Source of the DNA: Isurus oxyrinchus
Lineage: Eukaryota
Assembly (NCBI GenBank): GCA_026770705.1
Contig: JANJGN010000006.1
Coordinates: 10,416,001-10,480,000, forward strand
Direction: 5' to 3'
DNA: 64,000 bases
The stretch's first letter is position 1. The number at the start of each line of letters is the position of its first letter. This document shows, piece after piece, positions 3,401 through 64,000 of the stretch. The position numbers were made by a program.

Positions 3401-6400
3401 CTGGAAGACCAAAACGTTTCGGACAACTAAATAGCGTCTTTCACCGAGTTGATGATCCTCCAGCTGCAGTTGATGTTTGTCTCGGAGTGTGTCCCTGGGA
3501 TCAGCCCGTAGAGCACAAAGTCCTGTGTCACAGAACTGCTCGGGATGAACCTCGACAGAAACCACTGCATCTCTGTCCAGACCATCTTTGCAAAGGCACA
3601 ATCCACAAGGAGGTGAACAACAGTCTCGTCCCCCACCACAGCCACCTTGAGGGCAACGTGCAGAGGGGGTGAGATTCCTGGCATGTAGGAAGGATCTGAC
3701 GGGGAGGGCCATTCTCACCACCAGCCAAGCTATGTCTTGGCACTTGTTGGAAAGTCCTGGCAATGAGGCGTCCTGCCAAATGACTTTGTCAGTCTGCTCG
3801 GGGAACCATCCCACAGGATCCACCCTCTCCTTTTCCCGCAGGGCCTCTTAAGACGTTACGTGCCGACCTCTGCCTGATGGACCTGTGGTCAAAGGTGTTT
3901 CTCTGCATAAATTTTTCCACCGGGGAAAGGTGTTCCAACTACTTGGAGCATTCCGCGGCAGCGTGGCCAGACCCATCCTTCGCAACACCGGGACAGGTAG
4001 AACCTCAGCACGTAGTGACACTTGGTGTTTGCGTACCGAGGGTCTACGCACAGCTTGATGCAGCCTGACGGCCTGACCAAAGCCATTGCAGCCTCTCCTT
4101 GCAGTGATCACCCTGCGCCCCGACATTGGCGCAGGGGCTGCACGTAAGCATCTTTCAGTCATTCCATTACTTTTGCCCCACAAGTGTCCGCGGCCACCAA
4201 CCTGAAACGTAACTTTTTTAAGTCGGTGCAAGTTTCTCACGCGTGTGTCGAAAGTTTCCATTGAAAAATCACCATTTGCAGTGGAGGACGTTCCAACCGT
4301 CCCGGCACCTGGCAGGCGCAAGCGCCCAGGGTGCAGGTGTGACAGGCTTGAAGAGCGCCTGCGCCCTGCTCCTGCCCGGTTGACCAATCAGAGGCGGAGC
4401 AGGAGGAATGATGACTATTTCCTCTGCTGTACAGACATCAAGCCGGGAGAGCACCCAGCTCAACTGCACCTTCAATAGCTCAGCTGTTAGAGCGGAAAGC
4501 TATAGCTGTTCTGTGGCCATCCTTAGGTCGCTGGTTCAATTCTGGCCTAAAGCATATCCTTTATTCTTGGCCTCCATCCCCCACTGCTTTATATCCCTAC
4601 TACCCATATCCCCTCCAACAGGGGCACCTGTAATCTCGACGGTTGTTAAATGGGTATCGAAGGGCCGGACAAATGCTGGTGCTTCCCTACTGCCGGGAAA
4701 TGATCAGGTTAGGGCCGGGGTGAAGGACTCATGCATGCGGGACTCGGAGACCTCCTGCCGTGGCAAAGTGGCCGCACCGCGTAGAACGACGGTTTAAACG
4801 GAGCCTGAGGCAGTGCCCCCCAACCCCCACCCCCCCGCCCAATGTTAACTCTGAGGTAGTGTCTGCAGCGGATGATCATTCTTCAGTCGTTTTCCTGCCT
4901 TAACCTCTATCTGGGGGATTAGCTCAAATGGTAGAGTGCTCGCTTAGCATGTGAGAGGTAGTGGGATTGATGCCTGCATCTGTCAGTTGTACTTACTTAC
5001 TCAAACGGCATCGATTTTCTTCTTAAAAATGTTGACAATTTAAATTACTTTCATTTGGAAAGTACAGGCTAATATGCTCTTAATTTTGGTACATAAATGG
5101 TGCAGGAAAAGTGATGGCACAGGCAAGAAGGGTTGGCAATGCTTCTGGAATGGGGCATTATATTTCTCAATTTCTTGCTACTTCCAACCGTCTCCAATCG
5201 CCCGATGCCATTCGCATATCGCCTAAAGCCCAACACCCATCGCCCAATGCCCAACACCTAACATTCATCGCCCAACACACAACGCTCATCGCCCAACGCA
5301 CATCACTCAACACCCAACGACCATCGCTCAATGCCCAACACCCATCGACTAATACCCAACACCCATCGCCCAATGCCCAACACCCATCGCCCATCGCCCA
5401 ACACCCAAAGCCCAACATCCAATGCCCAACTGTTTACTGATTTCACCTGCTGTCCCTGCAGAGAGACAGGTCCCATTTAGAAGAGACTTGCCAGAGACTG
5501 GCTGGTGGAGAAATAACCAGGTGGTGCGTGTGGGAGGAAATGAGGGGTTCTGAGGGAACGAGAGAAGATGTGGGCAGAGATTCAGGACAAGGTTAGTAGC
5601 GAATGAACAGTGACCAGTGGACAGGGTTTGTTTGGCAGGGGTCTGGTGGGGGGGGGCGTGCTGGCGAACAGTGAACTGGGGATTGTGATGGGAGTGTTAG
5701 TAAATGGTGGTAAGGGATTAGAGCGTCGAAGTTAGTGTAGGGATTGGGATAGGGAGCAACTGGACAGCGGTTGGTGTTCAGTGGGAGGAGGCAGGAAAGA
5801 ATAATGAATAGGAGATTGGGGGTGGAGGGTAATGGGCTGGGTAGGGGTTGGGGCGAGGGGTTGGTAAACACTGGGTAGGGGATAGGGGTGGGGGAGGAGC
5901 ATGTTTAGTGGATGATCACGGTTCTGAGGTGAGGAGGGGAAATTTGGGTACAGGCAGTGGGGCAGAATGCAAGATTTAGTCCGGGAGTCGCAGCTTTCCC
6001 AAAAAGAGGGTCAAAGTCATTTACAGCTTTAAATGACTTCGCTAAGAAGAAAACATTTGGAAACACTTCATAAGCTAAACAAGCAGATAAGACATTCGAC
6101 ATAACAGGGGGAGAAGAGTTTACCGGTCCCAGATCAGACAAACCGATGGGGGAAGCAAACAGGGATATGCTGTTCTTCATAAGCAGGCAGTCTTCTCAGA
6201 GTGGTTCACTGGACCCAGATCTGGCAAACGCATGGAAGAAGAAGCGTGGTGCTGATCTCTGTAGCTGGAGCAATCTCTTCTGCTCTCAGTCTTCTTGAGC
6301 TAGATGTAAGTCCAAAGCCAGCATTGATCCAGTTTAAGAAGAATGGATCCTCCATCCAAAATATTCCCTCTTGAGAGCCCATTTATATACCTTATTTTAA

Positions 6401-63400: not shown

Positions 63401-64000
63401 ACTGGCAATCAATACGGTCCTAAATGGGTATTGGGGGGCAAGACAAATGCTGGTGAGTCCCTACTGCCGGGAAACGATCAGGTTAGGGCCGGGGTGAAGG
63501 ACGCGCGGGACTCGGAGAACTCCCGCCATAGCGCCGCGGAAAAGCGGCCACCCCGCCCCCTGCGGTGCGCGCGTGCACAGCGGCGGTTTAACACACCCTG
63601 AGGCAGCGCCTCCCAATGTTAACTTTGAGGTAGTGTCTGCAGCGGATGATCATTCTTTAGCCATTTTACGGCATGGATTTCTATCTGGGGGATTAGCTCA
63701 AATGGTAGAGCGCTCGCTTAGCATGTGAGAGGTAGCGGGATCAATGCCCGCATCCTCCACTTGTTGCTGTTTACTCAAACAGCACTGATTTTCATCTTAA
63801 AAATCTTGACAAACACAATTTCAATTACTTTCATTTGGAAACTACAGGCTAATATGCTCTTAATTTTGGTGCCCACATGGCCCAGGAACACAGATGACAC
63901 AGGCAAGAAGGGTTGGCAATGCATCTGGAATGGGCCACAATATTTCTCAATTTCTTGCTGCAACCAACCGCCCCCCAGCGCCCAATGCCCAACACACATC

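What the first reader, a model, noticed from the sequence alone, without database searches (positions are those of the whole stretch)
4322..64000. Homogenised macrosatellite of a two-gene tRNA-Tyr(GTA, intron)/tRNA-Ala(AGC) cassette: candidate tissue- or stage-specific tRNA supply locus
Seen: at least 28 head-to-tail ~2.2-kb units amplify only these two tRNAs, 1:1, with internal A/B boxes and T-tract terminators; 26 Tyr and 27 Ala copies keep their anticodons. Established: the Xenopus laevis 3.18-kb oocyte-type tRNA repeat (which includes an intron-containing Tyr and an Ala gene) and the clustered Bombyx silk-gland tRNA-Ala genes are amplified tRNA sets expressed in one cell type. Inference: this may be an undescribed equivalent, e.g. 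oocyte stockpiling or a gland making Tyr/Ala-rich structural protein. It could instead be a mostly silent satellite that captured the genes.
Basis: partly seen in the sequence, partly recalled or inferred. Interest (0 to 1): 0.75.

Follow-up and report, generated by a model that had tools for sequence, protein, structure and literature searches.

The report
Tandem array of tRNA-Tyr/tRNA-Ala genes
A 2.2-kb DNA unit carrying one tyrosine tRNA gene and one alanine tRNA gene is repeated head to tail at least 28 times, a kind of amplified tRNA locus already known from frogs, zebrafish and Arabidopsis, and whether it is expressed cannot be read from the sequence alone.

Summary
From 4318 to the window end there are 28 head-to-tail units, 23 of 2194-2198 bp, the rest one 2412, one 2182, two 1845 and a 741-bp last unit cut by the window. 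Each carries one intron-containing tRNA-Tyr(GTA) and one tRNA-Ala(AGC). ARAGORN Tyr and 27 Ala. Rfam finds nothing else.

Units u03-u28 are 97.7-100% identical to the reference unit, and the two units at the array edge have decayed. The array grew partly by copying multi-unit blocks.

Variable sites among units are about 3-fold denser on the tRNA transcription units than in the spacer (21 of 219 against 60 of 1876; placement permutation p=0.024). Single copies are therefore not visibly protected. The pattern matches published transcription-associated mutagenesis.

A 200-bp CpG-island-like block (observed/expected 1.04) lies between the two genes, inside a CpG-poor unit (0.25).

I read this as a Pol III-competent array, probably transcribed in the germline, of the known "oocyte-type" kind. 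A mostly silent satellite is not excluded. Expression, species and total copy number could not be tested. It is a new member of a known kind, of modest interest.

The parts
4318..64000 (+). Whole tandem array. It runs off the right end of the window: a 141-bp unit-end fragment followed by 28 units.
   Evidence: Unit-against-window BLAST; tRNA calls.
4469..6880 (+). Edge unit u01, decayed. It holds a dead Tyr (4469-4554, anticodon ATA, 5 mispairs) and a degenerate Ala (4913-4985, 35 bits, G3:U70 lost). The C-rich 21-bp minisatellite is expanded at 5218-5430.
   Evidence: u01 differs from the consensus at 13.7% of Tyr, 11.0% of Ala and 8.7% of spacer positions.
6881..9076 (+). Edge unit u02. It holds a dead Tyr (6881-6966, 27.8 bits, anticodon GAA, 3 mispairs) and an intact Ala (7308-7380).
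   Evidence: The Tyr body has 8 of 73 changes against 0.8% in the spacer.
28475..30670 (+). Representative 2196-bp unit, used as the reference.
28475..28560 (+). tRNA-Tyr(GTA) gene: exon 1 at 28475-28511, 13-nt intron at 28512-28524, exon 2 at 28525-28560. TTTT lies at 28572-28575.
   Evidence: ARAGORN; Rfam 53.3 bits; terminator offset; stem pairs.
28675..28874 (.). CpG-island-like block between the two genes: 21 CpG, observed/expected 1.04, 63.5% G+C.
   Evidence: There are few variants in it (5 variable sites across unit bins 201-400).
28903..28975 (+). tRNA-Ala(AGC) gene. The first TTTT lies at 29005-29008.
   Evidence: ARAGORN; Rfam 55.1 bits; the minimum-energy fold is a cloverleaf at -30.1 kcal/mol, z = -2.7; terminator offset.
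29275..29774 (+). G-rich spacer domain: 216 G against 48 C in 500 bp.
   Evidence: This is the source of the positive GC skew of the array.
15650..17494 (+). Short 1845-bp unit u06, lacking about unit positions 1800-2142.
50434..52278 (+). Short 1845-bp unit u22, with the same deletion junction as u06.
   Evidence: Blocks u06-u09 and u22-u25 are 99.69% identical over 8433 bp.
58867..64000 (+). Block u26-u28, a near-identical copy of u11-u13 (26279-32865).
   Evidence: 99.96% identity over 5133 bp.
1165..2799 (-). Left flank, not part of the array: reverse-transcriptase reading frame of a LINE retrotransposon.
   Evidence: Pfam RVT_1 at 4.6e-20 and zf-RVT at 6.1e-11. A second, shorter copy follows, and 537-1684 matches 2935-4064 at 91.9%.

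Best explanation
This is a genuine tandem array of a 2.2-kb cassette holding two RNA polymerase III genes, an intron-containing tRNA-Tyr(GTA) and a tRNA-Ala(AGC).

Shown:
- The array is kept uniform and enlarged by unequal exchange and by duplication of blocks of several units. Homogenisation fades at the array edge, where the copies decay.
- Most copies keep what a tRNA gene needs: a full cloverleaf, the anticodon and a T-run terminator.

Inferred:
- The genes are transcription-competent and have been transcribed in the germline. The array would then be a bulk-supply locus of the 'oocyte-type / maternal' kind known from Xenopus and zebrafish, probably one of several such arrays in this genome.
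- Selection acts on the array as a whole, not on single copies.
- The array's consensus tRNAs carry substitutions (Tyr T-loop/T-stem, Ala anticodon stem/T-loop) relative to the canonical vertebrate sequences as I recall them. They would therefore be array-specific isodecoders that could be traced by tRNA sequencing.
For: Array, unit structure and counts.

Block duplication: two 1845-bp units share one deletion junction. Blocks u06-u09 and u22-u25 are 99.69% identical, and u11-u13 and u26-u28 are 99.96% identical. Two unit subtypes about 1% apart alternate in blocks.

Edge decay: u01 aligns at 76-92%, u02 at 97.9%, and both edge Tyr copies are dead.

Competence: 25 of 28 Tyr and 25 of 28 Ala loci have all 21 stem pairs standard. 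TTTT starts at +12 in 26 of 26 Tyr copies. Ala folds as a cloverleaf on its own.

Germline activity (indirect):
- Among units u04-u27, the transcribed stretch (20 nt upstream + gene + intron + 10 nt downstream; 219 positions) has 21 variable sites against 60 of 1876 in the reference spacer (odds ratio 3.2, p=4e-5).
- Without CpG-context sites the counts are 13 of 194 against 52 of 1869 (p=0.0075). Random placement of two windows of the same size gives p=0.024.
- The excess persists in the subsets u06-u27 and u07-u27 without the two short units.
- Gene bodies are about 2.8-fold and inner flanks about 3-fold above the spacer. PMC6130373 describes this shape for young variants at active tRNA genes (passages read).
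- A 200-bp block with CpG observed/expected 1.04 lies between the genes, while unit positions 501-2000 have 0.25. CpG density around tRNA genes was the best predictor of activity in mammals (PMC6961574, passages read).

Precedent: oocyte-specific tandem tRNA genes in Xenopus (PMC1635290 and PMC11500080, passages); maternal tRNAs encoded in highly repetitive regions in zebrafish (PMC11417395, passages).
Against: - No expression, Pol III occupancy or methylation data are available.
- tRNA bodies are not more conserved than spacers. Nine of the 13 body variants lie in stems (my reading), and 3 copies have stem mispairs. Two Ala copies have lost G18, which I recall to be invariant.
- The variant counts are small: 21 sites, and the permutation p is only 0.024. 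The first version of the inner-flank count (8 of 40) was inflated by one old tract in u03 and fell to 4 of 40.
- Ectopic gene conversion from dispersed tRNA genes could add body variants.
- The Ala terminator is distal (+30), a feature that anti-correlates with activity (PMC6961574). High anticodon redundancy anti-correlates too.
- Most of the unit is CpG-poor (0.25), as expected for methylated DNA.
- The Arabidopsis Ser/Tyr array looks equally intact yet is silent in most tissues (PMC7544208, abstract and section 13).
- The CpG-activity rule was trained on placental mammals, and this window is probably not mammalian.
- The 'canonical' tRNA sequences are recalled, not retrieved.
Confidence: 0.5

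Rival explanations
1. A mostly silent satellite. A piece of DNA that happened to contain a Tyr and an Ala gene was amplified by unequal exchange and is kept uniform by the same turnover. The genes are packed in repressive chromatin and add little or nothing to the tRNA pool.
For: - tRNA bodies vary at least as much as the spacer (13 of 146 against 60 of 1876).
- Edge copies decay freely.
- Spacer CpG observed/expected is 0.25.
- The Ala terminator is distal.
- The Arabidopsis clustered tRNA genes keep their Pol III elements yet are silent (PMC7544208, abstract).
- Redundancy anti-correlates with activity (PMC6961574, passages).
Against: - The CpG block with observed/expected 1.04 is kept in every core unit.
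- Variation is concentrated on the transcribed stretches even without CpG sites.
- 50 of 56 loci have all 21 stem pairs standard, and 53 of 56 reach the Rfam gathering score with the expected anticodon.
- Young arrays (0-1% divergence) would look intact either way, so intactness weighs little.
Confidence: 0.3
2. A supply locus for one somatic secretory cell type that makes a Tyr/Ala-rich structural protein. This is the reader's gland variant, analogous to the Bombyx silk-gland tRNA-Ala cluster or the Arabidopsis root-cap Ser/Tyr cluster.
For: Only by analogy. A tandem tRNA cluster that supports translation of a Ser/Tyr/Pro-rich glycoprotein in particular cells is documented (PMC12308677, abstract and passages), and the same paper notes that the silk-gland tRNA-Ala genes are clustered.
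Against: - Nothing in the window points to such a protein or tissue.
- Two-tRNA arrays of arbitrary pairs (K-N, K-S, R-T) are frequent in zebrafish (PMC2888827, passages), so the pairing may be accidental.
- A mutational footprint among inherited copies needs germline transcription, not somatic transcription.
Confidence: 0.05
3. The array has a role in chromosome architecture (TFIIIC-bound boundary, replication barrier, nuclear positioning) and not in tRNA supply.
For: This rests on general knowledge that tRNA genes can act as barriers. PMC1635290 mentions this for S. pombe centromeric tRNA genes (passage). There is no evidence from this window.
Against: It is untested. It also does not explain why the anticodons, terminators and full cloverleaves are kept.
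Confidence: 0.05
4. The copy number or block pattern is an assembly artefact, that is, a repeat that was over-expanded or wrongly ordered.
For: Blocks of units are 99.7-99.96% identical, which is the kind of sequence assemblers find hard.
Against: - There are no N.
- Units carry a structured pattern of private and shared variants, two subtypes and an edge gradient, as real arrays do.
- The array itself would remain even if the order of units were wrong.
Confidence: 0.03

Closest known systems
Xenopus laevis oocyte-type tandemly arrayed tRNA genes (3.18-kb repeat with 8 tRNA genes)
   Same: Both are head-to-tail kilobase units made of Pol III tRNA genes of different amino acids, all in one orientation. 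By my recall the Xenopus repeat includes an intron-containing tRNA-Tyr and a tRNA-Ala. The class is described as oocyte-specific and activated around genome activation (PMC1635290 and PMC11500080, passages).
   Different: Here there are two genes per 2.2-kb unit, not eight per 3.18 kb. Sequence homology was not tested because the Xenopus sequence paper (PMC306215) is not held. Expression here is unknown. That the Xenopus Tyr intron is also 13 bp is my recollection only.
Zebrafish repetitive tRNA gene regions (long arm of chromosome 4) encoding maternal tRNAs
   Same: Both are highly repetitive tRNA gene regions with two-tRNA heterogeneous pairs in parallel orientation (PMC2888827, passages). 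In zebrafish, maternally deposited isodecoders are encoded in such repeats, while later-stage ones are single or few copies (PMC11417395, passages).
   Different: The amino-acid pairs named for zebrafish (K-N, K-S, R-T) are different. This window's G+C (about 50%) is higher than I recall for zebrafish. No expression data are available here.
Arabidopsis Ser-Tyr-Tyr (SYY) tRNA gene cluster
   Same: It is a tandem cassette with intron-type tRNA-Tyr genes, 27 units in the earlier paper (PMC7544208, section 13) and '34-copy repeat' in the later one (PMC12308677, passage). It is silent in most tissues and reactivated in particular cells that make a biased-composition glycoprotein (PMC12308677, abstract).
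   Different: It is in a plant and arose independently. The partner tRNA and the unit are different. It is documented as heterochromatic, which is unknown here.
Bombyx mori silk-gland tRNA-Ala gene cluster
   Same: These are clustered tRNA-Ala genes tied to one secretory tissue (as cited in PMC12308677, passage).
   Different: It is in an insect and has one tRNA species. I did not read the primary paper. Nothing links this window to a gland.
Vertebrate macrosatellites (for example DXZ4, D4Z4)
   Same: Kilobase units in a long, highly uniform tandem array.
   Different: Those carry no tRNA genes. Their names come from my recall and from search listings only.

Membership tests
Cytosolic tRNA gene (Rfam RF00005) | Covariance-model score at or above the family's gathering score over the full model | tested here: met
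   54 hits at or above 29 bits, all spanning model positions 1-71. That is 54 of the 56 loci of the 28 units. The two that miss are the edge Tyr copies at 22.7 and 27.8 bits.
Cytosolic tRNA gene (Rfam RF00005) | Cloverleaf stems pair and the anticodon is present | tested here: met
   All 21 stem pairs are standard in 25 of 28 Tyr and 25 of 28 Ala loci. The anticodon is GTA in 26 of 28 Tyr and AGC in 28 of 28 Ala. The exons of Tyr were not joined; the pre-tRNA was scored with its intron.
Cytosolic tRNA gene (Rfam RF00005) | Identity elements: G3:U70 for Ala, C1:G72 for Tyr (recalled from the literature) | tested here: met
   Pair 3-70 is a mispair only in the edge Ala at 4913 (GG), and pair 1-72 only in the edge Tyr at 4469 (CC). 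The reference copies show G3/T70 and C1/G72.
RNA polymerase III type-2 gene | Internal A and B boxes | tested here: inconclusive
   The boxes were read by eye against a recalled consensus. Both genes have the A-box region. The Tyr B box departs at 2 positions in 22 of 26 copies and the Ala B box at 3 (sequences). No scoring tool for promoter strength was available.
RNA polymerase III type-2 gene | Run of four or more T shortly downstream | tested here: met
   TTTT at +12 in 26 of 26 Tyr and at +30 in 27 of 27 Ala. The Ala distance is long.
Oocyte-type / maternal tandem tRNA array (Xenopus, zebrafish) | tRNA genes of more than one kind in head-to-tail kilobase units | tested here: met
Oocyte-type / maternal tandem tRNA array (Xenopus, zebrafish) | Transcribed in oocytes or early embryos and repressed in somatic cells | not testable with these tools
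   No RNA or chromatin data. Only indirect signs exist: variation concentrated on the transcribed stretch and the CpG block.
Oocyte-type / maternal tandem tRNA array (Xenopus, zebrafish) | Array isodecoders differ from dispersed somatic copies | not testable with these tools
   The rest of the genome is not available. Differences from canonical sequences are from recall. One supports itself within the window: the edge Ala has TG where the core has CA, which implies an ancestral CG.
Oocyte-type / maternal tandem tRNA array (Xenopus, zebrafish) | Sequence homology of the unit to the Xenopus 3.18-kb repeat | not tested
   No eukaryotic sequence collection is on hand, and the paper with the sequence is not held.
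Macrosatellite | Unit of a kilobase or more, long uniform tandem array | tested here: met
   2.2-kb unit, at least 59.7 kb in total, core units 97.7-100% identical to the reference unit.
Macrosatellite | Copy number varies between individuals | not testable with these tools
   Only one sequence is available.
Epigenetically silenced tRNA cluster (Arabidopsis SYY type) | Dense DNA methylation and repressive chromatin over the units | not testable with these tools
   The indirect signs are split. Spacer CpG observed/expected of 0.25 suggests long-term methylation. The inter-gene block at 1.04 suggests a protected part.

The most novel reading that the evidence does not exclude
The array encodes its own Tyr and Ala isodecoders, which are made mainly in the germ line (oocyte stock). 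The excess of variants on the transcribed stretches is then a footprint of germline Pol III transcription that can be read from a single assembled array. If so, tandem tRNA arrays in any long-read genome could be classed as germline-active or silent from their paralogue variation alone, without expression data.
Probability: 0.35. Interest if true: 0.5.

Novelty: new member of a known kind. Interest (0 to 1): 0.33.

Why it matters
Amplified tRNA loci are among the few cases where tRNA supply is set by genome structure. They are now being linked to maternal stockpiling (Xenopus, zebrafish) and to cell-type-specific translation (Arabidopsis, silkworm). A further clean two-gene array with recognisable marker substitutions would be a convenient test case in its species. 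The array tRNAs can be told from dispersed copies, so their stage and tissue of expression can be measured directly. The within-array variation pattern also suggests a cheap way to guess germline activity of such arrays from sequence alone. The kind of locus is not new, however, and nothing here overturns current views.

Tried and rejected
- Tandem Repeats Finder missed the array because its period limit is 500. It reported only an (AT)n run and the C-rich minisatellite.
- Rfam in permissive mode found no third RNA gene, neither in one unit nor in 1-7400. The weak antisense 'Plastid-ycf2' hits lie exactly on the tRNAs and fall far below threshold.
- Pfam on 10 reading frames of one unit found 0 families, so the spacer has no recognisable coding remnant.
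- The unconstrained fold of the pre-tRNA-Tyr did not give a cloverleaf and was no better than shuffles (z = -0.09). With the stems imposed the energy is -22.6 kcal/mol. I put no weight on either result.
- My first flank count (8 of 40 variable positions just upstream of the genes) was rejected. Five of them sit in one tract of unit u03 that resembles the old edge unit. All later tests leave u03 out.
- The mutation spectrum did not separate the gene stretches from the spacer.
- Literature: three searches for a described Tyr/Ala array or for the intron string found nothing relevant. This covers only the held open-access library.
- One search failed on a term that was too long. The point was covered.
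- The Xenopus repeat sequence paper is not held.

- The species, the rest of the array, other arrays of this genome and dispersed Tyr/Ala genes therefore stayed unchecked.
- The protein atlas was not used, because its description excludes known families and taxonomy.
- Supplementary files of papers were not consulted. The tables of PMC11417395 and PMC2888827 could list Tyr/Ala arrays that I did not see.

I do not take the window for human. Its flank holds a reverse-transcriptase frame with a C-terminal zf-RVT domain. By my recall this is a non-mammalian L1/Tx1-like element, which would point to a non-mammalian vertebrate, but the species is unknown.

The two Tyr exons were never joined. The spliced tRNA was neither folded nor searched.
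Full report
**What is there**

The window has no N. BLAST of one unit (28475-30670) against the window gives a gap-free series of head-to-tail matches from 4318 to the window end. It begins with a 141-bp unit-end fragment. Then come 28 units starting at 4469, 6881, 9077 and so on to 63260. The last unit is cut by the window end.

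Of the 25 Tyr-to-Tyr spacings from 9077 to 63260, 22 are 2195-2198 bp, one is 2182 bp and two are 1845 bp. The two edge units are 2412 and 2196 bp.

ARAGORN finds 26 tRNA-Tyr(GTA) and 27 tRNA-Ala(AGC), all on the + strand, strictly alternating, and no other tRNA. Rfam at gathering threshold finds 54 matches, all to the tRNA family. The 26 Tyr score 46.2-58.1 bits and the 27 Ala 44.4-55.1 bits; the 54th match is the degenerate Ala of the first unit at 35 bits. Tandem Repeats Finder missed the array only because its period limit is 500.

**Anatomy of a unit** (reference 28475-30670)

- The Tyr gene has two exons split by the 13-nt intron after position 37, and TTTT starts 12 nt downstream.
- About 340 bp of spacer follows. 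It contains a 200-bp block with 21 CpG, observed/expected 1.04 and 63.5% G+C.
- The Ala gene comes next. Its first TTTT is 30 nt downstream, with only TTT at +11.
- After that come an A+T-rich stretch, a short C-rich 21-bp minisatellite, a 500-bp G-rich domain (216 G, 48 C) and about 900 bp of mixed sequence.
- Unit positions 501-2000 have CpG observed/expected 0.25.

Permissive Rfam searches found no third RNA gene. Pfam found nothing in 10 reading frames of a unit.

The left flank (1-4317) holds a LINE reverse-transcriptase frame (RVT_1 4.6e-20, zf-RVT 6.1e-11) and a second, shorter copy. Positions 537-1684 match 2935-4064 at 91.9%. By my recall this type of element is L1/Tx1-like and not mammalian. 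I do not take the window for human and infer a non-mammalian vertebrate, but the species is unknown.

**State of the genes**

With the cloverleaf pairs written out, 25 of 28 Tyr and 25 of 28 Ala loci have all 21 stem pairs standard. The exceptions are:

- The two edge Tyr copies: anticodons ATA and GAA, 5 and 3 mispairs, 22.7 and 27.8 bits.
- One core Tyr (11259) with an A·C mispair.
- The edge Ala (4913), which has lost the G3:U70 pair.
- Two core Ala copies with one mispair each (35491, 50862).
- Two further Ala copies (9504, 13882) with A at position 18, a position that I recall to be an invariant G.

Ala folds into a cloverleaf unaided (-30.1 kcal/mol, z = -2.7). The unconstrained fold of pre-tRNA-Tyr is uninformative. 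The covariance model treats the intron as an insertion.

**How the array is maintained**

Units u03-u28 are 97.7-100% identical to the reference unit, u02 is 97.9%, and u01 is 76-92% depending on the piece. This is the usual picture of homogenisation fading at an array edge.

Two unit subtypes about 1% apart occur in runs. The two 1845-bp units share one deletion junction with a short microhomology, so the deletion happened once. The blocks around them are copies of each other: u06-u09 and u22-u25 are 99.69% identical over 8433 bp, and u11-u13 and u26-u28 are 99.96% identical over 5133 bp. The array thus grew, at least lately, by duplication of blocks of several units.

**Are the genes protected by selection, or marked by transcription?**

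Among units u03-u27 the mature tRNA positions are more variable than the spacer, not less: 13 of 145 against 82 of 2037, with nucleotide diversity 0.0115 against 0.0090.

A finer partition first suggested a strong peak in the 20 nt upstream of the genes (8 of 40). Five of these sites lie in a single tract of u03 that resembles the old edge unit, so I dropped u03.

With u04-u27 (24 units), one search gives these counts of variable sites:

| Region | Variable sites | Positions |
|---|---|---|
| tRNA bodies | 13 | 146 |
| Intron | 2 | 13 |
| 20 nt upstream | 4 | 40 |
| 10 nt downstream | 2 | 20 |
| Reference spacer | 60 | 1876 |

The transcribed stretch as a whole has 21 of 219 against 60 of 1876 (odds ratio 3.2, p=4e-5). 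The excess holds in two smaller subsets. It also holds after removing CpG-context sites (13 of 194 against 52 of 1869, p=0.0075). Against random placement of two windows of the same sizes, which allows for clustering of variants, p=0.024. CpG positions inside the gene stretches are variable more often (8 of 22) than elsewhere (11 of 102).

By my reading, nine of the 13 body variants lie in stems, about what chance gives. Six of them give G·U pairs and three give mispairs.

In the edge units the gene bodies have diverged at least as fast as the spacer. In u01, Tyr is at 13.7%, Ala at 11.0% and the spacer at 8.7%. In u02, Tyr has 8 of 73 changes against 0.8% in the spacer.

**Reading of this pattern**

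Single copies are not visibly under purifying selection, as expected when more than fifty copies are redundant. But the excess of variants is confined to the transcribed stretch. Gene bodies run at about 2.8-fold and inner flanks at about 3-fold the spacer level. Thornlow and colleagues describe this shape for young variants at germline-active tRNA genes and attribute it to transcription-associated mutagenesis; inactive genes lack it (PMC6130373, passages read).

The same group found CpG density around tRNA genes to be the most informative predictor of activity in placental mammals, with a distal terminator and high anticodon redundancy counting against activity (PMC6961574, passages read). 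Here the CpG-island-like block between the genes argues for a part of each unit that stays unmethylated in the germ line. The distal Ala terminator, the redundancy and the CpG-poor remainder of the unit argue the other way.

The numbers are small. The rule comes from mammals. Ectopic conversion from dispersed tRNA genes could contribute body variants. I treat this as suggestive only.

**Array-type isodecoders**

Compared with the vertebrate Tyr and Ala sequences as I recall them (not retrieved by any search), the array consensus differs at two positions in each gene:

- Tyr: a T-loop purine and a T-stem pair that becomes G·U.
- Ala: an anticodon-stem pair that becomes G·U, and a T-loop purine.

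All four look like CpG decay. One case is supported inside the window: at the Ala T-loop site the old edge copy has TG where the core units have CA, which implies an ancestral CG. At the Tyr T-stem site 4 of 26 copies still have the CpG form and score 55.9-58.1 bits, against 46.2-53.3 bits for the other 22. If dispersed genes of this genome keep the canonical forms, these positions are ready-made markers for array-derived tRNA.

**Comparison with what is known**

- Tandem arrays of tRNA genes are an established kind. [quoted passage not shown] - In zebrafish most tRNA genes lie in highly repetitive clusters, and maternally deposited isodecoders are encoded in such repeats, while later ones are single or few copies (PMC11417395, passages).
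- Heterogeneous parallel pairs such as K-N, K-S and R-T are frequent in zebrafish (PMC2888827, passages).
- In Arabidopsis a Ser-Tyr-Tyr cassette repeated 27 times is silent in most tissues (PMC7544208, abstract and section 13). It is reactivated in root-cap cells, where it supports a Ser/Tyr/Pro-rich glycoprotein. That paper draws the parallel to the clustered silk-gland tRNA-Ala genes of Bombyx (PMC12308677, abstract and passages).

Three searches found no description of a Tyr/Ala 2.2-kb array or of its intron string in the held library. Supplements and non-open papers were not seen.

**Verdict**

The locus is a real, young, block-duplicating tandem array of a Tyr/Ala tRNA cassette.

My best reading (confidence about 0.5) is a Pol III-competent, germline-transcribed bulk-supply array of the oocyte/maternal type, probably one of several in its genome, with selection acting on the array and not on single copies. 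The main rival (about 0.3) is a mostly silent satellite. The gland-specific variant has no support beyond analogy.

It is a new member of a known kind, and interest is modest. The most useful by-products are the marker positions for tracing array tRNAs and the idea of reading germline activity from variation among paralogous units.

Noticed in passing
window 1165-2799 (-), 3272-3847 (-), 537-1684 and 2935-4064: The left flank holds a LINE reverse-transcriptase frame of 544 codons without a stop (RVT_1, zf-RVT) and a shorter second copy. The two stretches are 91.9% identical over 1150 bp. By recall the element type is L1/Tx1-like, which would point away from mammals.
   Followed up: partly
window 5218-5430 (u01) against about 29175-29236 in a core unit: A C-rich 21-bp minisatellite, about 60 bp long in core units, is expanded to about 200 bp (9.5 copies) in the decayed edge unit.
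   Followed up: no
window 6881-6966: The Tyr gene of the second unit carries 8 changes in 73 positions, several of them transversions, while the spacer of the same unit differs from the consensus at only 0.8% and its Ala gene at 0 of 73. This could be a local burst of mutation or a conversion tract from a diverged copy. It is unexplained.
   Followed up: partly
unit positions 801-1300, e.g. window 29275-29774: The spacer domain is strongly G-rich on the + strand (216 G against 48 C) with one canonical four-G-run motif. The first eight letters of the Ala gene recur twice in it, at unit positions 1034 and 1188. It may be prone to forming unusual DNA structures, and it is the cause of the array's GC skew.
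   Followed up: no
unit positions about 2103-2120, e.g. window 30577-30594: A CCAAT-box-like sequence lies about 85 bp upstream of each Tyr gene (motif recalled). It is removed by the 351-bp deletion in the two short units.
   Followed up: no
array spacer, units u04-u27: Outside the gene stretches, G>A variants (18) outnumber C>T (5) on the + strand. This may only reflect the G-rich composition. The counts were not normalised.
   Followed up: no
window 379-407: An (AT) dinucleotide run of 14.5 copies lies in the flank. Several weak, sub-threshold Rfam hits pile up on it and are composition artefacts.
   Followed up: no
unit bins 1001-1100 and 1701-1900: Variant-rich spacer bins unrelated to the genes: 8, 7 and 12 variable sites per 100 bp. 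The 1801-1900 bin borders the deletion of the short units and may include alignment noise there.
   Followed up: no
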